A DNA stretch of 64,000 bases. It comes from Candidatus Nomurabacteria bacterium. Its GTDB lineage: Bacteria; Patescibacteriota; Minisyncoccia; Phycocordibacterales; UBA5272. Below are positions 7,239-54,643 of this stretch, one piece after another (position 1 is the stretch's first letter; each line of letters opens with the position of its first letter). Below the pieces are notes generated by a model, which was not told where the DNA came from, searched no databases, and saw only the letters and a program-made list of their open reading frames with translations. Location: NCBI GenBank assembly GCA_029288775.1, contig JARIGQ010000004.1:67303-131302 (forward strand), in the 5' to 3' direction. A program made the translations under genes and the position numbers.

Positions 7239-8336
7239 ATGTCAGTATCTTCGATTCTGTTATTTTTAGTTATATTGCTCGTGCTGGTTATTGTGCATGA
7301 GTTTGGGCATTTTATAACTGCTAAGCTTGTGAATATGCGTGTCGATGAATTTGCATTTGGATTCCCTCCGCGTATTTTTGCCAAGCAAAAAGGGGAAACT
7401 ACGTACGCAATTAACGCACTTCCGCTTGGAGGATATGTATCTATCTGGGGAGAAAATGGCGAGCCAGATGATGCCGCGAAAACACATCCGCGTGCCTTTT
7501 CCAATCGGCCGAAATGGGCACAACTCCTTGTACTTGTCGCTGGTGTCACAATGAACATGCTGCTTGCTTTTTTAATTTTCGTGGGCACGTCGTTTGGCTC
7601 TGTACAAATGAGCTCAGATGATCCAACGTACGGCTCGCGTATTCAGCATGCAGCACTTACCGTGGTCGACGCAACTCCTGATTCTCCTGCATATAAGGCA
7701 GGTATTGTACCAGGATCAGTGCTTATTAAGATTGTAAGTGGAGGACAAACTGCTACCCTTGAGAGCGCAACCTCCGTAGTGTCGTTTATTGAGCGTCATC
7801 AGAATGATCCATTCTCCATTTCTTATATTTCTCCCGATGGTCAACAGGCAAGTACGGTGATCGCTGCGGTATATGGAATTGTTCCGGACAAAAAGGCACT
7901 TGGGGTATCGTTGTCTATGGTCGGCATAGTGCACACCACACCTTGGGAAGCGGTTAAGCTTGGTTATCAGACTACTTTTAATATGACGTACACTACTGTG
8001 CAAGGGTTAGCGTCACTTGTGACTTCAATTGGGCAAGGTAAGAATGTGCTTTCTTCGCTTGCCGGACCGATTGGTATTGCGCGGGTGGTAGGTGAGACAA
8101 GTCACTATGGTTGGACTGCACTTCTGTCGCTTGTTGCTATTCTTTCTATCAATTTGGCTGTATTTAATATTTTGCCTTTGCCGGCACTTGATGGAGGGCG
8201 AGTTGTTGTGGTGCTTTTGGAAACAGTCACTCGAAAAAGAATTCCTTACAAATATTACTCATGGCTTAATATTGTGGGTTTTGCTGCTCTGATGTGTCTG
8301 CTCATTGTGGTGAGTATTCATGATGTCTCAATGTAG
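7239..8336 (+). CDS. rseP: Site-2 zinc metalloprotease RseP/RIP family with PDZ domain
   Basis: HEFGHF HExxH, LDGG, PDZ-like segment, multiple TM; start chosen at MSVSSILLF. Confidence 0.85.
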   Translation: MSVSSILLFLVILLVLVIVHEFGHFITAKLVNMRVDEFAFGFPPRIFAKQKGETTYAINALPLGGYVSIWGENGEPDDAAKTHPRAFSNRPKWAQLLVLVAGVTMNMLLAFLIFVGTSFGSVQMSSDDPTYGSRIQHAALTVVDATPDSPAYKAGIVPGSVLIKIVSGGQTATLESATSVVSFIERHQNDPFSISYISPDGQQASTVIAAVYGIVPDKKALGVSLSMVGIVHTTPWEAVKLGYQTTFNMTYTTVQGLASLVTSIGQGKNVLSSLAGPIGIARVVGETSHYGWTALLSLVAILSINLAVFNILPLPALDGGRVVVVLLETVTRKRIPYKYYSWLNIVGFAALMCLLIVVSIHDVSM

Positions 8337-8338
8337 TT

Positions 8339-8347
8339 TGGTATACT
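8339..8347 (+). promoter_or_regulatory. Extended -10 TGgTATACT, 10 nt before the proS ATG
   Basis: TGnTATACT. Confidence 0.45.
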
Positions 8348-8357
8348 AAATGTTCTT

Positions 8358-9623
8358 ATGCGACAATCCCAGCTTTATACCAAAACTCGAAAAGAAGCTC
8401 CGGCTGATGAAATTGCTAAAAATGCGCAGTTGCTCATTCGTGCAGGTTTTATCAATAAAGAAATGGCGGGAGCCTATGCTTATCTACCGCTTGGATTGCG
8501 CGTGCTCAATAAAATCATGGATGTTATTCGTGATGAAATGAATACCATCGGGGGACAGGAAATTACGCTTCCCGCGCTTCAAGAACCAGAAGTCTGGGAA
8601 AAGACGAATCGTTGGAGTGAAGAGGTTGTCGATGTGTGGTTCAAAACGGAACTCAAGTCTGGCGCTAAAGTCGGTTTAGGATTTACCCATGAAGAGCCGT
8701 TTACGCGCATGATGAAGCAGTTCATTAGAAGTTATAAAGATCTGCCGGTATACGCCTACCAATTTCAGACAAAGTTTCGCAATGAAACTCGAGCAAAGTC
8801 AGGGATTATGCGTACGCGTGAATTTATTATGAAAGACCTTTATTCTTTCTGTCGTACCAAGGAAGATCAGGAGAAGTATTATGAAGTAGTAAAGGAAGCA
8901 TACGTAAAAATTTTCAATCGTTTAGGTATTGGTGAAAAGACGTATGTAACATTCGCTTCAGGGGGCGTTTTCTCAAAGTATTCGCATGAATTCCAAACTA
9001 TTTGTGATGCAGGTGAGGATGAAATTTATATTCATGATGGTAAGCGTATTGCGATTAATAAAGAAGTGATGCTACCTGAAGTGCTTGCTGATTTGGGTGT
9101 AAAGCAAGAAGATCTTCGCGTGGAAAAAGCATCCGAAGTTGGAAATATTTTCAACCTTGGAACAAGATTTTCGGAAGCTCTTGAACTTTCCTATCAAGAT
9201 GAAGAGGGGATAAGTCAGCCTGTCTGGATGGGATCCTACGGTATCGGACCTGCACGTGTTATGGGGGTGATCGTCGAATTGTTATCGGATGCAAAAGGGC
9301 TTGTGTGGCCGGCTGAAGTAGCGCCATTTTCTGTACATTTGATTTCTCTTTCTAAAGACAAGGATTCGCAAGCAGCAAAGACAGCAGAGGAGTTGTATAC
9401 AAAACTAACAGACGCGCATGTGGAAGTGCTTTTTGATGACCGTGAGGAATCTGCCGGAGCTAAGTTTGCCGATAGTGATTTAATTGGTATTCCTATGCGA
9501 GTCGTGGTGTCTGACAAGTCATTGCAGGCAGGAGGTGTAGAAATCAAGGAACGTACAAGTGATACTTCGGAAATTGTAACGGTAGAACAGTTGCTGAAGT
9601 CGTTTGCTCAGAATTGCGATTAA
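8358..9623 (+). CDS. proS: Prolyl-tRNA synthetase, short form without a large editing insertion
   Basis: Class II ProRS motifs and anticodon-binding domain; 421 aa. Confidence 0.9.
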   Translation: MRQSQLYTKTRKEAPADEIAKNAQLLIRAGFINKEMAGAYAYLPLGLRVLNKIMDVIRDEMNTIGGQEITLPALQEPEVWEKTNRWSEEVVDVWFKTELKSGAKVGLGFTHEEPFTRMMKQFIRSYKDLPVYAYQFQTKFRNETRAKSGIMRTREFIMKDLYSFCRTKEDQEKYYEVVKEAYVKIFNRLGIGEKTYVTFASGGVFSKYSHEFQTICDAGEDEIYIHDGKRIAINKEVMLPEVLADLGVKQEDLRVEKASEVGNIFNLGTRFSEALELSYQDEEGISQPVWMGSYGIGPARVMGVIVELLSDAKGLVWPAEVAPFSVHLISLSKDKDSQAAKTAEELYTKLTDAHVEVLFDDREESAGAKFADSDLIGIPMRVVVSDKSLQAGGVEIKERTSDTSEIVTVEQLLKSFAQNCD

Positions 9624-52228: not shown

Positions 52229-52239
52229 TACACTTATTG

Positions 52240-52338
52240 TATGATTTCCTTCACGTGGCTTGGATTCATTGTTATTACTGCAATTATATTCTTTGTCGGT
52301 TTTTCTGTTTCCGTTATTTATATTGATACTAAGAAATG
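52240..52338 (+). CDS. Candidate 32-aa single-TM micropeptide
   Basis: MISFTWLGFIVITAIIFFVGFSVSVIYIDTKK; TACACT -10-like hexamer 6 nt upstream. Confidence 0.25.
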
Positions 52339-52466
52339 ATAACCATGATTACTTTTACTTATGCCGCATTCATTTGTATTGAGTTTGCAGTCTTACTGGC
52401 AGGGCTTGGCATTGGACTGTGGCTTGCAGTTACGAACAAGGTTTCTTTTTTATAGGTAGTATTTTT

Positions 52467-52484
52467 GGTTACTGCTTAGTAACT
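52467..52484. promoter_or_regulatory. Palindromic motif GGTTACTGCTTAGTAACT (hairpin GTTACT-GCTT-AGTAAC); repeated at 53614-53631
   Basis: 17/18 identical second copy downstream of the protease gene. Confidence 0.4.
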
Positions 52485-52665
52485 TCTGATGGTGATAAGG
52501 ACAGGTACTCTCCCTAGGAATACGTCGTAAAAGATATACAGAACACAAGTAGCAAAACTTGTCATTTTTATACTGAAAAAGGGGCAAAATACGACGTCAT
52601 TAGTGGTGTGAAATATACAGGTGGTTGTGTTTTGAGTATTGTTATATACTAAAAACAAACAACAC

Positions 52666-52911
52666 ATGGAAGAAAACGGAAAAGAGTTTCTTTTCAATGC
52701 TCCCAGCAACCTTTCTGACTACACTGGTCAGTTCTGTGTCTTTTTCTCTGACGAGGAAAACCCTCAAATCATAGGGTGTCATCCTATTGCTGAAGAAGCA
52801 TACAAGTTAGCAGAAAAGGTTGAAGGAGAGACAGGAAAGAAGCCGGTGGTATTAAGAGTGCAAGAAAATCCTACAAATAATATAGCTCGCGTGCTTGCTT
52901 TAAAGCACTAA
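52666..52911 (+). CDS. Hypothetical small protein
   Basis: ORF; TGtTATATACT upstream. Confidence 0.4.
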   Translation: MEENGKEFLFNAPSNLSDYTGQFCVFFSDEENPQIIGCHPIAEEAYKLAEKVEGETGKKPVVLRVQENPTNNIARVLALKH

Positions 52912-52917
52912 ATAATT

Positions 52918-53538
52918 ATGTTCTGCAGAGTCCCTTATGTGTCTACTGGAGGAAGGGCGAGACCGTATCTTGAAGTTGTGTTTGCCGACATAAGCCGAAC
53001 TAAGGAAAGCACTAAGCGTTTTGCAATGGTTGACTCCGGAGCAGATCACACAGTAATTCCATATTCGCTTGGTGTAGCTATTGGCTTAGCCGAACCAACA
53101 GCAGAAGAGACGGTATCCAGCGTCGGTGGTGTTGGTGGTAGTTCAAGTTATCTAGAGCGAGAATGCCATATTTACTTGACCAATCCACAAACGAACGAAC
53201 AGTATATCTTTAAAGAAACTGTTTGGTGGATATATCCCGACCAAGCAATGCTTGCTGAATATCAAGCTCATGTAGAAAACTATAATAAGCATGAGAACTA
53301 TCAGACGCAAACAAAGGAAGGAACTGATCTCCATGTTCACTTCGAAAACGAAAAGCAAAAGATTATTGAGGCTGTTCAAGCCATAAACAATAAATTGGAA
53401 GGAATAGATATTCTACTGGGTAGACCTTTCTTTGATAACTTTGACTTCATCCAGTTCATGCATAAGGACAGGAACAAAGAGGAAAGATGTTTCTTTAATT
53501 ACAAAGTAAACAAGAAGCGTCCAATTGAAATTAATTGA
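52918..53538 (+). CDS. Retropepsin-like (clan AA) aspartic protease
   Basis: MVDSGADHTVIP (D-S-G-A) active-site motif and downstream ILLGRPFF motif. Confidence 0.65.
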   Translation: MFCRVPYVSTGGRARPYLEVVFADISRTKESTKRFAMVDSGADHTVIPYSLGVAIGLAEPTAEETVSSVGGVGGSSSYLERECHIYLTNPQTNEQYIFKETVWWIYPDQAMLAEYQAHVENYNKHENYQTQTKEGTDLHVHFENEKQKIIEAVQAINNKLEGIDILLGRPFFDNFDFIQFMHKDRNKEERCFFNYKVNKKRPIEIN

Positions 53539-53613
53539 AATTATCAGCTTAGAAACCAGTCAAGACAAATCAGCTCAACCTCGATTCCCCCGGATGGTTG
53601 GGAAGGGGGTGAA

Positions 53614-53631
53614 GGTTACTGCTAAGTAACT
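53614..53631. promoter_or_regulatory. Second copy of the palindromic motif GGTTACTGCTAAGTAACT
   Basis: Repeat of 52467-52484. Confidence 0.4.
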
Positions 53632-53890
53632 ATAAAGCTGTCTCACAACAATCCTTTCGTCAAGATCATTCATCGACACTAAAGAAACAAGGGTAGAAAC
53701 CAGTGTAACTTTTCACGGAATGAAATAATGGAATGGATAATTGATGTCGTACAATCCTTGTTGTTGTACGACAAGATATGTGGATAGCCTAAACCCCTCT
53801 ACGGAAACGTCGTAAAAGATATATTGTGCGACATTAGCCATATATAAGACCCCTGCCAAATAAAGCTAGAAATAAGGACTAAATAAAACG

Positions 53891-53906
53891 GTGCACAATT
53901 GTGCAC
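53891..53906. promoter_or_regulatory. Perfect 16-bp palindrome GTGCACAATTGTGCAC (candidate operator)
   Basis: Perfect dyad symmetry in a 610-nt noncoding region. Confidence 0.35.
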
Positions 53907-54109
53907 AAAGTTTGCATACGCACTCTCCTGCCCCATCCTCAGTCAGAGAGTAAAAGTTTTGTAATCCTTTTTCTTTTTTTCTGATTTTGCGATTTTAAGA
54001 TTTTTGACCTAAATCGACTTTGGGTTGGTTTTTGAACCAACTAATGAATTAATGATCATAATGGTAACTTATTGGAAGCGCTCTACTATTTCAAGTTTGA
54101 GTGGCTGTA

Positions 54110-54118
54110 TGGTAGTAT
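54110..54118 (+). promoter_or_regulatory. Extended -10 TGgTAGTAT upstream of the 54149 gene (leader carries a GAGGAGGA SD)
   Basis: TGnTAnnnT. Confidence 0.4.
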
Positions 54119-54148
54119 CAAGTCTTCAGTTCGTTTTGAGGAGGACAC

Positions 54149-54643
54149 ATGAGTTTATTGTTTGCGGGAGCATATCCGATGGGAACCGGTACAGCAAAAA
54201 CGGATGACGATCGTAAGGAGTGCATTCGTGAGACACTTCCATCGGCACTTCCTCCGATGAAGATGTGGTCGGAGGTCAAACCTGACGCGCCGGAGACTTT
54301 CGTTGTCATGAAAAAAGATGATCCGGATCGCTTCGTTCTCATGCGCCGGAATTTCGAAGGTTATCAATGGCGTGTGTACGGTATCCGCCAACCCGAGCTC
54401 CTTCTTTCTGAAGAAACCCGCAGAGCTGTTAAGCAGCTGGCGCGAGATGGTTTCGACGTAGAAGTGCGCGTCATTGGTGCGCTCCAAGTGGGTAAGCACA
54501 CTCTTTATCGGACGCGTACACAGCCCTATTGGTCCTATCTTCAGGATCATGCAGCTCAAGAAAACCTTCCAACTTCCGTGGAGGCCGAAAGTTTTCCCTC
54601 GGATTGGCGAGAAGTGCTTGCTAATTACGCGTATACACATTAG
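54149..54643 (+). CDS. Hypothetical protein, higher GC, strong SD
   Basis: GAGGAGGA 3 nt upstream of the ATG; preferred over the antisense shadow ORF. Confidence 0.5.
   Translation: MSLLFAGAYPMGTGTAKTDDDRKECIRETLPSALPPMKMWSEVKPDAPETFVVMKKDDPDRFVLMRRNFEGYQWRVYGIRQPELLLSEETRRAVKQLARDGFDVEVRVIGALQVGKHTLYRTRTQPYWSYLQDHAAQENLPTSVEAESFPSDWREVLANYAYTH

What the first reader, a model, noticed from the sequence alone, without database searches (positions are those of the whole stretch)
52229..54148. AT-rich accessory islet with repeated palindromic motifs flanking a retropepsin-like aspartic protease gene
Between the M23 peptidase and the efflux operon lies about 1.9 kb with unusually long noncoding stretches (about 400 nt and 610 nt). 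Two motifs occur both before and after the gene pair 52666..52911 plus 52918..53538. The palindrome GGTTACTGCTTAGTAACT (52467) recurs as GGTTACTGCTAAGTAACT (53614), and ACGTCGTAAAAGATATA (52522) recurs identically at 53807. The downstream noncoding region also holds a perfect 16-bp palindrome GTGCACAATTGTGCAC (53891), a 9-bp perfect hairpin GTCGTACAA/TTGTACGAC (53746-53772) and TTGGTT/AACCAA arms (about 54029). The encoded protein has a D-S-G-A active site and an ILLGRPFF motif typical of clan AA retropepsin-like proteases, which are uncommon in bacteria. Flanking direct repeats around a small cargo is the architecture of an integrated or mobilisable element or of a regulator-controlled module. 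No integrase or transposase is present.
Basis: seen in the sequence. Interest (0 to 1): 0.6.

Follow-up and report, generated by a model that had tools for sequence, protein, structure and literature searches.

The report
Small gene insertion at chromosome dif site

Summary
All the motifs are real, at the stated coordinates, and non-random. The interpretation needs reframing.

**Motif B is part of a dif-like site.** It belongs to an invariant 27-nt site, GTCGTAAAAGA-TAT-ATTGTGCGACATT (53809-53835).
- The site occurs once per contig in 18 syntenic relatives and in at least 120 metagenomic contigs.
- It always lies where GC skew flips and gene orientation converges.
- It has dif architecture: 11-6-11 with imperfect dyad symmetry.
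- An inovirus-like contig carries an exact copy.

I conclude it is this clade's Xer/dif site.

**The upstream copy is a half site.** The copy at 52522-52538 keeps only the left arm and the central region. It sits where relatives have their dif.

**The segment between is an insertion.** The 1.27 kb from 52539 to 53808 is absent from all 24 syntenic relatives (L009-L032). This is an IMEX-like insertion with no integrase, resembling the TLC and GGI elements.

**The cargo is a conserved two-gene module.** It pairs an ~80-aa protein with a ~210-aa retropepsin-fold protease (DSGAD, GVGG flap, LLGRPFF, and a 50-aa helical insert). The module occurs in unrelated contexts across Patescibacteria. Its function is untested; an addiction or defence role is a guess.

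**Other points.**
- Half of the "400-nt noncoding" stretch holds two conserved tiny membrane-protein genes.
- Motif A is private to this locus and unexplained.

The parts
52241..52455 (+). Two overlapping tiny membrane-protein ORFs (32 aa at 52241-52339, 39 aa at 52336-52455). They are conserved backbone genes, not part of the insertion.
   Evidence: tblastn hits lie immediately after the M23 gene in about 20 relatives. The DNA is alignable to L009, L010 and L015.
52467..52484 (+). Motif A copy 1, a hairpin-forming palindrome GGTTACTGCTTAGTAACT, 12 nt after the stop codon of the 39-aa ORF.
   Evidence: It folds as a 6-bp hairpin with z = -6. It is absent from related loci.
52522..52538 (+). 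Hybrid half-dif (attL-like). It has the dif left arm ACGTCGTAAAA and the central GATATA, followed by an unrelated right arm CAGAACACAAG.
   Evidence: Identity to the true site ends exactly at the first base of the right arm. It lies 69 nt after the tiny ORF, where relatives have their dif.
52539..53808 (+). Inserted segment of about 1.27 kb between the half site and the intact site. It is the cargo plus its flanking noncoding DNA.
   Evidence: It is absent from all 24 syntenic relatives, L009-L032. GC is 0.397, the 1st percentile of the window.
52666..52911 (+). 81-aa partner protein. One homologue is named 'DUF5678 domain-containing' by UniRef.
   Evidence: 87 homologues were found. It lies immediately upstream of the protease in 10 of 11 contexts. 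AF2 pLDDT is 73.5 with no PDB fold match.
52918..53538 (+). 206-aa cytoplasmic retropepsin-fold aspartic protease. It has DSGAD at 39-43, a GVGG flap at 71-74, LLGRPFF at 165-171 and a helical hairpin insert at 109-161.
53614..53631 (+). Motif A copy 2 (GGTTACTGCTAAGTAACT), preceded by a CCCCC/GGGGG hairpin, 76 nt after the protease stop codon.
53746..53772 (+). Pseudo-dif palindrome GTCGTACAA-N9-TTGTACGAC. Each arm is one mismatch from a dif arm, and the spacer is 9 nt instead of 6.
   Evidence: Similar extra dif-like copies lie left of dif in relatives.
53807..53835 (+). Intact putative dif site: left arm ACGTCGTAAAA, central GATATA, right arm TTGTGCGACAT(T). The invariant 27-nt core is 53809-53835.
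53891..53906 (.). Perfect 16-bp palindrome GTGCACAATTGTGCAC to the right of dif. It is outside the insertion and its function is unknown.
   Evidence: It is not found in relatives.
54149..54643 (+). GC-rich 164-aa ORF (GC 0.51) with no family hit. It occupies the position where relatives have a 159-aa MarR-like regulator upstream of the efflux genes.

Best explanation
**Setting.** The window comes from a Paceibacteria/Nomurabacteria-type Patescibacteria chromosome and spans its replication terminus.

**The site.** The 27-28-nt site at 53807-53835 is the chromosome dimer resolution site (dif) of this clade. It has two 11-nt arms of imperfect dyad symmetry around a 6-nt centre. It would be recognised by host Xer tyrosine recombinase(s).

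**The islet.** The islet proper is a 1.27-kb insertion (52539-53808) on the left side of dif.
- Its left border is a hybrid site with a genuine left arm and central region joined to a foreign right arm.
- Its right border is the intact dif.
- This is the footprint of Xer-mediated integration of a circular DNA whose attachment site mimics the left arm and centre of dif but has a divergent right arm. The TLC phage of Vibrio and the gonococcal genetic island have the same arrangement.
- That explains the flanking direct repeat and the lack of an integrase.

**The cargo.** It is a self-contained two-gene module that moves between Patescibacteria genomes.
- One gene encodes an ~80-aa alpha/beta protein.
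- The other, tightly coupled, encodes a cytoplasmic retropepsin-fold aspartic protease. It has one catalytic Asp per chain, so it must work as a homodimer.
- I infer that the small protein is the protease's dedicated partner, either an inhibitor or a substrate, and that the pair acts as an addiction- or defence-type module.

**What is shown and what is inferred.**
- Shown: the repeats, the absence of the segment in relatives, the site's conservation, its terminus location, and the predicted fold and motifs.
- Inferred: Xer catalysis, mobility as a circle, and the function of the pair.
For: **The site behaves like dif**
- The core is identical (27 of 27) and single-copy in 18 relatives. L009 and L010 differ only at 3 central bases.
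- At least 120 metagenomic contigs each carry one site, with no contig name repeated. These include contigs of 317 kb to 1.46 Mb.
- With loci oriented by the site, GC skew is +0.076 on the left and -0.046 on the right (paired Wilcoxon p = 7e-9, n = 44).
- 94% of long-ORF bases on the left are on the + strand, and 85% on the right are on the - strand.
- In the window, cumulative skew flattens at 51-60 kb and gene strand switches at 59.6 kb.
- The 11-6-11 partial dyad matches the published definition of dif (PMC5357621).
- A Xer-family recombinase gene (TIGR02225, E = 6e-71) lies 300 nt from the site in L039.
- An inovirus-like viral contig with Rep_OBD and Zot carries the exact site.

**The segment is an insertion**
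- Synteny g48388-gltX-M23-tiny ORFs-dif-(MarR)-MFP-RND holds in relatives, and none has the pair.
- The half site sits 69 nt after the tiny ORF. Relatives have dif 11-408 nt after it.
- Identity stops at the boundary between centre and right arm.
- Hybrid dif-like sites also lie left of dif in other loci.
- L009 has a different 1.29-kb insert at the same spot.

**The cargo is a conserved module**
- The pair is conserved in 10 of 11 contexts examined.
- DSGAD, the GVGG flap and LLGRPFF are invariant or nearly so across 33 homologues (D, S, G, A, D and the G, R, F, F positions invariant).
- The AF2 model has pLDDT 92.8.
- The best PDB fold matches are the EIAV, HTLV-1 and RSV proteases. The best viral matches are avian retroviral and DDI1-type proteases.
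- A sequence profile hits the RSV and MAV proteases.
Against: **Against Xer or dif**
- No Xer gene lies in the 64-kb window, and the whole genome is not available.
- GC skew to the right of the site in the window is weakly positive (+0.022). The + strand efflux operon lies there.

**Against simple integration of a foreign circle**
- The element-side flank of the intact dif (TGTGGATA...CCCCTCTA.GGA) resembles relatives' chromosomal flank better than the copy-1 flank does.
- Motif A is duplicated too.
- The module was therefore probably cut from, or recombined with, a related chromosome's dif region.

**Against mobility or recent activity**
- There are no replication or transfer genes, so the segment may be a remnant of a larger element.
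- The pair is not flanked by repeats in other genomes. It is absent from phage and viral collections.

**Against the proposed function**
- There is no experimental or structural evidence that the two proteins interact.
- In L008 the 5' half of the small gene is missing while the protease is intact.
- Pfam hits of the protease are below gathering thresholds.
Confidence: 0.62

Rival explanations
1. The repeated motifs are operator sites of a transcription factor. The factor would co-regulate the protease pair and the downstream efflux operon, making this a regulator-controlled module or regulon.
For: - Motifs A and B both occur upstream of a transcription unit.
- Both contain dyad symmetry.
- Relatives have a MarR-type regulator next to the efflux genes.
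Against: - Motif B belongs to a 27-nt site conserved in more than 120 contigs whatever the neighbouring genes. These include loci with no efflux operon (L015, L024, L028).
- The site always sits at the strand and skew switch.
- Copy 1 is a truncated half of the site.
- No regulator gene lies in the islet, and the window lacks the MarR gene.
- Motif A occurs nowhere else in the window or in relatives.
Confidence: 0.07
2. The conserved site is the end of a small RNA gene used as an attachment site by a classical integrase-encoding element. The integrase and most of the element were later deleted, leaving the pair and a duplicated gene end.
For: - Integration into RNA gene ends duplicates 15-50 nt in the same way.
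- Some conservation (CATATAAT, CCCCT) continues for about 30 nt to the right of the site.
Against: - There is no Rfam hit, even at E <= 5, and no tRNA or tmRNA.
- Conservation collapses outside the 27 nt.
- The only variable positions are the 3 central ones.
- The site marks the terminus in more than 100 loci.
- Conserved small-RNA genes are not expected to track the terminus in this way.
Confidence: 0.08
3. The pair and its flanks are ancestral at this position and were lost in relatives. The half site arose from a local duplication or slippage unrelated to site-specific recombination.
For: - Both copies carry a chromosomal-type left flank, and motif A is duplicated as well.
- The nearest available relatives are only about 60-80% identical in flanking proteins, so recent history is unresolved.
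Against: - Loss would have to have occurred in all 24 syntenic relatives (L009-L032), which span several lineages.
- The pair sits in unrelated contexts in Beckwithbacteria, Parcubacteria and others.
- The segment is compositionally low in GC.
- The duplication ends at the functional boundary of the site.
Confidence: 0.15
4. On the cargo: the protease is a housekeeping maturation or quality-control protease with a chaperone-like partner, not an addiction or defence module.
For: - Known bacterial retropepsin-like enzymes such as APRc, RimB and the Rlo proteases have physiological substrates (PMC4140852, PMC11957791, PMC11957051).
- The L008 protease is intact without a full partner gene.
Against: - The family is sparse: only 36 representatives reach E < 1e-10 among 1.84 billion proteins.
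- It is patchy and sits in variable contexts next to restriction-modification, HipA, Fic and GmrSD genes.
- It is absent from close relatives, which does not fit a housekeeping role.
Confidence: 0.25

Closest known systems
IMEXs with a divergent XerD arm: the Vibrio TLC satellite phage and the Neisseria gonococcal genetic island (difGGI), as described in PMC5357621
   Same: - It is integrated at the chromosomal dif.
- It is flanked in direct orientation by an intact dif and a dif-like site that keeps the left (XerC-type) arm and central region but has an unrelated right arm.
- It has no integrase of its own.
   Different: - It is only 1.27 kb with two genes and no replication, transfer or phage functions.
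- The host is an uncultured Patescibacteria bacterium whose Xer system is uncharacterised.
- The element-side flank looks chromosomal.
- Neither integration nor excision has been demonstrated.
Legionella LME-1 and the XerL/dif system (PMC9765430)
   Same: A previously unrecognised dif site is revealed by a mobile element's attachment-site mimic, by conservation and by position at the terminus.
   Different: - That work validated recombination, the recombinase and the phenotypes experimentally. Here everything is in silico.
- LME-1 is a large, phage-like element.
Acinetobacter plasmid pdif modules (PMC7399989)
   Same: Small gene cassettes, including toxin-antitoxin pairs, are bounded by Xer sites and carry no recombinase gene.
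   Different: - Those are on plasmids and are bounded by inversely oriented XerC/D and XerD/C sites.
- Here the sites are chromosomal, in direct orientation, and one is only a half site.
Clan AA (retropepsin-like) proteases of prokaryotes: the TIGR03698 / Asp_protease_2 small proteases, Rickettsia APRc and Pseudomonas RimB
   Same: - There is a single DSGA catalytic motif per chain.
- It has a glycine-rich flap and a C-terminal G-R motif.
- The predicted retropepsin fold implies a homodimer.
   Different: - A helical hairpin of about 50 aa is inserted between the flap strands and the C-terminal motif.
- It has no membrane or secretion signal.
- It scores below the Pfam and NCBIfam thresholds.
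- It has an obligate small upstream partner.

Membership tests
dif (Xer chromosome dimer resolution site) | [quoted passage not shown] | tested here: met
   The site reads ACGTCGTAAAA-GATATA-TTGTGCGACAT. The arms match 9 of 12 when folded about the centre. The definition is from PMC5357621.
dif (Xer chromosome dimer resolution site) | Located at the replication terminus, where GC skew switches and gene orientation converges | tested here: met
   Across 121 oriented loci, skew is +0.076 on the left and -0.046 on the right (p = 7e-9). Coding bases are 94% on the + strand to the left and 85% on the - strand to the right. The window's skew plateau and strand switch agree.
dif (Xer chromosome dimer resolution site) | Single copy per chromosome | tested here: inconclusive
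   There is one full site in the window, one per 20-kb relative locus and one per contig in 120 contigs of up to 1.46 Mb, with no contig name repeated.
dif (Xer chromosome dimer resolution site) | Arms conserved across related species while the central region may vary | tested here: met
   Variation is confined to the 3 central bases: TAT in 110 loci, TAC in 9, AAT in 1, CAT in 1, and AGC in L009 and L010.
dif (Xer chromosome dimer resolution site) | Bound and recombined by Xer recombinase(s) | not testable with these tools
   The only evidence is circumstantial: a Xer-family gene lies 300 nt from the site in L039, L131 and L141. None is present in the window.
IMEX (integrative mobile element exploiting Xer) | Inserted at dif and bounded by dif and a dif-like site in direct orientation | tested here: met
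   The half site is at 52522-52538 and the intact site at 53807-53835, both on the + strand.
IMEX (integrative mobile element exploiting Xer) | No integrase of its own | tested here: met
   Only two ORFs have homologues, and neither is a recombinase.
IMEX (integrative mobile element exploiting Xer) | Presence/absence polymorphism (an empty site in related genomes) | tested here: met
   All 24 syntenic relatives (L009-L032) lack the segment. No strain-level comparison was available.
IMEX (integrative mobile element exploiting Xer) | Existence as a circular or extrachromosomal form, with demonstrated Xer-dependent integration or excision | not testable with these tools
   No reads are available. 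The segment has no replication genes. The pair was not found in viral or phage collections.
Clan AA retropepsin-like aspartic protease | D-[ST]-G-A catalytic motif, a glycine-rich flap and a C-terminal G-R-x motif | tested here: met
   Across 33 homologues DSGAD is invariant, G71 and G74 of the GVGG flap are invariant (V72, G73 at >=90%), and L166, G168, R169, F171, F172 of LLGRPFF are invariant.
Clan AA retropepsin-like aspartic protease | Retropepsin fold | tested here: met
   The AF2 model has pLDDT 92.8. The top PDB hits are the EIAV, HTLV-1 and RSV proteases with probability 0.95-1.0. BFVD hits agree.
Clan AA retropepsin-like aspartic protease | Score above the curated Pfam or NCBIfam cut-offs | tested here: not met
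   Asp_protease_2 scores 19.9 against a cut-off of 24.3. RVP scores 17.1 against 20.7. gag-asp_proteas scores 15.9 against 28.2. There is no NCBIfam hit.
Clan AA retropepsin-like aspartic protease | Homodimeric, pepstatin-sensitive proteolytic activity | not testable with these tools
   Not applicable here.
DUF5678 (Pfam PF18929) | Match to the family model | tested here: inconclusive
   UniRef names homologue P0040 'DUF5678 domain-containing protein'. However, hmmscan of six members, including that one, against Pfam-A gave no such hit at E <= 5.
Type II toxin-antitoxin-like module | Two small, co-oriented, tightly spaced genes found together in variable genomic contexts | tested here: met
   The gap is 6 nt here and 0-30 nt elsewhere. 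The pair is intact in 10 of 11 contexts.
Type II toxin-antitoxin-like module | One product is toxic and the other neutralises it; the antitoxin usually binds DNA | not testable with these tools
   No DNA-binding domain was detected in either protein. L008 keeps the protease with a truncated partner gene, which is mild evidence against.
Acinetobacter-type pdif module | Cassette bounded by inversely oriented XerC/D and XerD/C sites | tested here: not met
   The two sites are in direct orientation, and one lacks a right arm.

The most novel reading that the evidence does not exclude
The 1.27-kb segment is a functional miniature IMEX, the smallest kind described. It would be mobilised solely by the host Xer system at a previously unreported Patescibacteria dif site. 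Its cargo, the DUF5678-like protein plus the retropepsin-fold protease, would be a new class of protease-based addiction or anti-phage module that stabilises or defends the terminus region of these reduced genomes.
Probability: 0.2. Interest if true: 0.7.

Novelty: new member of a known kind. Interest (0 to 1): 0.5.

Why it matters
**A candidate terminus marker for Patescibacteria.** If correct, this gives a sequence-defined candidate dif site, and therefore a terminus marker, for a large group of uncultured Patescibacteria. None turned up in the literature library I searched.

**Terminus hot spot.** The DNA next to dif appears to be a hot spot for small insertions in these tiny genomes. Evidence includes other hybrid sites, a different insert in L009, variable presence of the efflux operon, and an inovirus-like contig with a dif mimic.

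**An uncharacterised protein pair.** The work flags a compact, conserved pair of a small protein and a retropepsin-fold protease. It is a tractable target for testing whether retrovirus-type proteases serve in bacterial addiction or defence modules.

**Limits.** The general mechanisms (dif/Xer, IMEX) are well known, and nothing here is experimentally verified.

Tried and rejected
- **Gapped alignment of the two noncoding regions.** It scored no better than shuffled sequence. The similarity is confined to the two motifs.
- **Rfam and tRNA searches.** Rfam at gathering thresholds and at E <= 5, plus the tRNA/tmRNA scan, found nothing. I rejected the structured-RNA reading because conservation collapses outside 27 nt.
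- **Promoter and terminator scan.** Hits did not exceed shuffled expectation.
- **Exact-sequence look-up of the window's protease.** Its contig is not on record.
- **Single-sequence search with the small protein.** It found only itself. A profile of neighbours from related loci was needed.
- **Family scans of the small protein.** Pfam, NCBIfam and PHROGs gave nothing significant. Its model has no PDB fold match.
- **Flanking repeats around the pair in other genomes.** None were found, so the repeat is a property of this location and not of the module.
- **Search for the pair in phages and viral contigs.** None were found.
- **Remnants of the MarR gene in the window.** None were found.
- **Xer gene in the window.** None was found.
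Full report
**1. Observation**

- GGTTACTGCTTAGTAACT is at 52467 and GGTTACTGCTAAGTAACT at 53614. They are the only two matches in 64 kb at up to 3 mismatches, against 0.05 expected.
- ACGTCGTAAAAGATATA is at 52522 and 53807, again the only two matches, against 0.07 expected. The similarity extends to 25 nt at 88% identity.
- The 16-bp palindrome is at 53891. The GTCGTACAA/TTGTACGAC hairpin is at 53746/53764. The TTGGTT/AACCAA arms are at 54025/54035.
- At GC 0.384 against 0.445, the region is among the lowest-GC 1.9-kb stretches of the window (0.2nd percentile).

One point is wrong. The upstream "400 nt noncoding" stretch contains two overlapping tiny membrane-protein ORFs (52241-52339 and 52336-52455). 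Their homologues follow the M23 peptidase gene in about 20 relatives, so they are backbone genes.

**2. The gene pair**

The 206-aa protein has only sub-threshold Pfam hits: Asp_protease_2, RVP and gag-asp_proteas, at E = 1e-3 to 2e-2. Other evidence supports a retropepsin fold.
- It has 35 homologues, all from Patescibacteria metagenomes.
- Their alignment shows invariant DSGAD, G71 and G74 of the GVGG flap, and L166/G168/R169/F171/F172 of LLGRPFF.
- An AlphaFold model built from that alignment has mean pLDDT 92.8. It shows a beta core with a helical hairpin inserted at residues 109-161.
- Its best PDB matches are the EIAV, HTLV-1 and RSV proteases, with probability 0.95-1.0.
- Its best viral-structure matches are an avian retroviral protease and a DDI1-type peptidase.
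- The sequence profile hits the RSV and MAV proteases.

An exhaustive profile search of 1.84 billion representatives found only 36 proteins at E < 1e-10. Beyond those it reached ordinary 130-145-aa clan AA proteases (TIGR03698-like and Asp_protease_2). The protein is therefore a retropepsin-fold enzyme of a small, distinct subfamily. Having one catalytic Asp per chain implies a homodimer.

The 81-aa upstream protein is conserved with it.
- In 10 of 11 genomic contexts a 77-87-aa homologue lies immediately upstream.
- The eleventh context, L008, retains only the 3' half of the small gene.
- A profile search found 87 homologues.
- UniRef calls one of them "DUF5678 domain-containing". Pfam scans here did not reproduce that.
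- Its model is moderate (pLDDT 73.5) and has no PDB fold match.
- The surrounding genes differ in every locus. They include GAPDH/pentose-phosphate genes, a restriction-modification system, HipA, Fic, GmrSD and a tRNA synthetase. The pair therefore behaves as a mobile two-gene module.
- It was not found in phage or viral collections.

**3. Empty-site analysis**

A scan of species-representative genomes with the M23 peptidase returned 24 Nomurabacteria/Paceibacteria-type loci with the same gene order: g48388, gltX, M23, tiny ORFs, then MFP-RND and the convergent genes. None contains the pair at this position.

**4. What motif B is**

A sensitive DNA comparison showed that window positions 53790-53890 are 80-92% identical to DNA just after the tiny ORF in about 20 relatives, even though flanking proteins are only 50-80% identical.
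- The conserved object is a 27-nt core, GTCGTAAAAGATATATTGTGCGACATT (53809-53835).
- It is identical and single-copy in 18 relatives.
- L009 and L010 differ only at three central bases.
- Conservation collapses outside the core, and there is no Rfam hit. It is therefore a protein-binding DNA site, not an RNA gene.
- It reads as 11-nt arms with imperfect dyad symmetry around a 6-nt centre: ACGTCGTAAAA-GATATA-TTGTGCGACAT. That is the textbook architecture of dif (PMC5357621).

A metagenome scan found at least 120 contigs, each with one site and no contig name repeated. They include contigs of 317 kb to 1.46 Mb. Central-base variants were TAT (110), TAC (9), AAT (1) and CAT (1).

When the loci are oriented by the site:
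- GC skew is +0.076 on the left and -0.046 on the right (paired Wilcoxon p = 7e-9).
- 94% of long-ORF bases on the left are on the + strand, and 85% on the right are on the - strand.

In the window itself, cumulative skew rises for 50 kb and then flattens at 51-60 kb. Gene orientation switches at 59.6 kb.

Two further observations fit.
- A Xer-family recombinase gene lies 300 nt from the site in L039.
- A 3.9-kb viral contig encoding Rep_OBD and Zot proteins, and therefore inovirus-like, carries the exact site. Filamentous phages are the classic users of Xer/dif.

I conclude, at about 0.85 confidence, that this is the dif site of the clade. I found no paper describing one.

**5. The islet re-read**

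The upstream copy of motif B (52522-52538) has the dif left arm and central region. It then diverges at the first base of the right arm: CAGAACACAAG instead of TTGTGCGACAT. It lies 69 nt after the tiny ORF, where relatives have their dif at 11-408 nt.

The layout is therefore:
- tiny ORF
- hybrid half-dif
- 1.27-kb cargo (52539-53808)
- intact dif

This matches integrated IMEXs whose attachment site conserves the XerC-type arm and centre but not the XerD-type arm, such as TLC and the gonococcal island (PMC5357621). It explains the absence of an integrase.

The same neighbourhood is a hot spot in other genomes.
- Other contigs have hybrid sites 290-2200 nt to the left of dif.
- L009 has a different 1.29-kb insert at the same position.
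- Several relatives carry extra direct or inverted pseudo-dif copies.
- The window has one such pseudo-dif at 53746-53772: GTCGTACAA-N9-TTGTACGAC.

**6. What does not fit neatly**

Motif A is duplicated along with the dif left flank, at different spacing (38 nt versus 175 nt). It is absent from 1.28 Mb of related DNA.

The element-side flank of the intact dif carries the TGTGGATA...CCCCTCTA.GGA sequence shared with relatives. It matches them better than the copy-1 flank does. Simple capture of a wholly foreign circle does not predict this. The module was more likely excised from, or recombined with, a related chromosome's dif region, or the flanks were homogenised afterwards.

Motif A forms a 6-bp hairpin. 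It could be a terminator-like element or an accessory sequence. I cannot tell which.

The 16-bp palindrome at 53891 lies outside the insertion and is not conserved.

To the right of dif, the window has a GC-rich 164-aa ORF where relatives have a MarR-like regulator. Some relatives lack the efflux operon altogether. Both sides of dif are therefore variable.

**7. Function of the cargo**

This part is inference. The evidence for an addiction- or defence-type module, with the small protein as the protease's inhibitor or substrate, is as follows.
- The genes are tightly coupled (6-nt gap).
- The module is sparse and patchy in distribution.
- It sits in variable contexts rich in defence and toxin-antitoxin genes.
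- It has weak PADLOC hits to the B components of two candidate systems (E = 2e-3 and 4e-3).

Against a strict antitoxin role:
- L008 keeps the protease with a truncated partner gene.
- No DNA-binding domain is detectable.

I put this reading at about 0.3. A dedicated physiological protease is the main alternative.

**8. Verdict**

The kind of element (dif/Xer, IMEX) is known. What is new is the candidate dif site for these Patescibacteria, the tiny size and cargo of the insertion, and the uncharacterised protease pair.

Noticed in passing
window 52241-52339 and 52336-52455: Two overlapping tiny (32-aa and 39-aa) hydrophobic ORFs directly after the M23 peptidase gene are conserved at the same position in about 20 relatives. 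They are probably real small membrane proteins co-transcribed with the peptidase.
   Followed up: partly
L155:1-3900 (IMGVR_UViG_3300009784_000101), site at 14-40: A viral contig encodes a rolling-circle Rep (Rep_OBD, E = 1e-18), a Zot-like ATPase and small membrane proteins, so it is inovirus-like. It carries the exact 27-nt dif-like site, which makes it a candidate filamentous phage of Patescibacteria that integrates through Xer.
   Followed up: partly
window 54149-54643, compared with L010:11976-12455, L013:11887-12387 and L016:11795-12274: Relatives have a conserved 159-aa MarR-like regulator between dif and the MFP-RND efflux genes. The window instead has an unrelated GC-rich (0.51) 164-aa ORF with no family hit, and no MarR remnant.
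   Followed up: partly
L015, L024 and L028 (to the right of the site): The MFP-RND efflux operon is absent in some syntenic relatives. In those, dif is followed directly by the convergent genes. The efflux operon is therefore itself variable cargo on the right side of dif.
   Followed up: no
L016:11428-11495, L017:2570, L020:11582, L024:11537, L025:11533, L032:11758: Extra dif-like copies, mostly inverted, lie 25-150 nt to the left of the true site in several relatives. With the true site they form long imperfect hairpins. Their origin and role are unknown.
   Followed up: partly
L054/L122 (-389), L092/L108/L110 (-483), L137 (-395), L046 (-289), L107 (-2201), positions relative to the site: Hybrid sites with a foreign left arm joined to ATATTGTGCGACATT lie to the left of dif in direct orientation. 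They bound small inserts of 0.3-2.2 kb, which are further candidate Xer-mediated insertions.
   Followed up: partly
L039:2378-3310 (also L131 and L141): A Xer-family tyrosine recombinase gene (XerD/XerC/XerA models, E about 1e-70) lies 300 nt from the dif-like site. This recalls the linked xerS-difSL and xerH-difH arrangements.
   Followed up: partly
L009:11530-12815: The closest relative has a different 1.29-kb insert, with a 203-aa ORF and a 141-aa ORF, between the tiny ORF and dif. Its dif central region is AGC instead of TAT.
   Followed up: no
contig of P0020 (ERZ1426841), genes at 8008-8262 and 8262-8624: A second, shorter pair lies 2 kb downstream of the DUF5678-like/protease pair. It consists of an 84-aa protein and a 120-aa Asp_protease_2-like protein. 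This suggests a wider family of small-partner plus retropepsin modules.
   Followed up: no
window 53779-53786; L009, L010, L011, L026 and L027 at 20-45 nt left of the site: The motif TGTGGATA is conserved at a variable distance to the left of dif in the closest relatives. A degenerate version (TGGTGATA) precedes the half site at 52490-52497.
   Followed up: partly
L008:5740-6000: The 5' half of the small partner gene is missing, with an in-frame TAA before ...SFIAEEAY, while the downstream protease gene is intact.
   Followed up: partly
L132 (Ga0207654_10000002, a 1.46-Mb contig): The same 27-nt site occurs in a 1.46-Mb contig, which is large for Patescibacteria. This dif type may extend beyond the Nomurabacteria-like group.
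   Followed up: no
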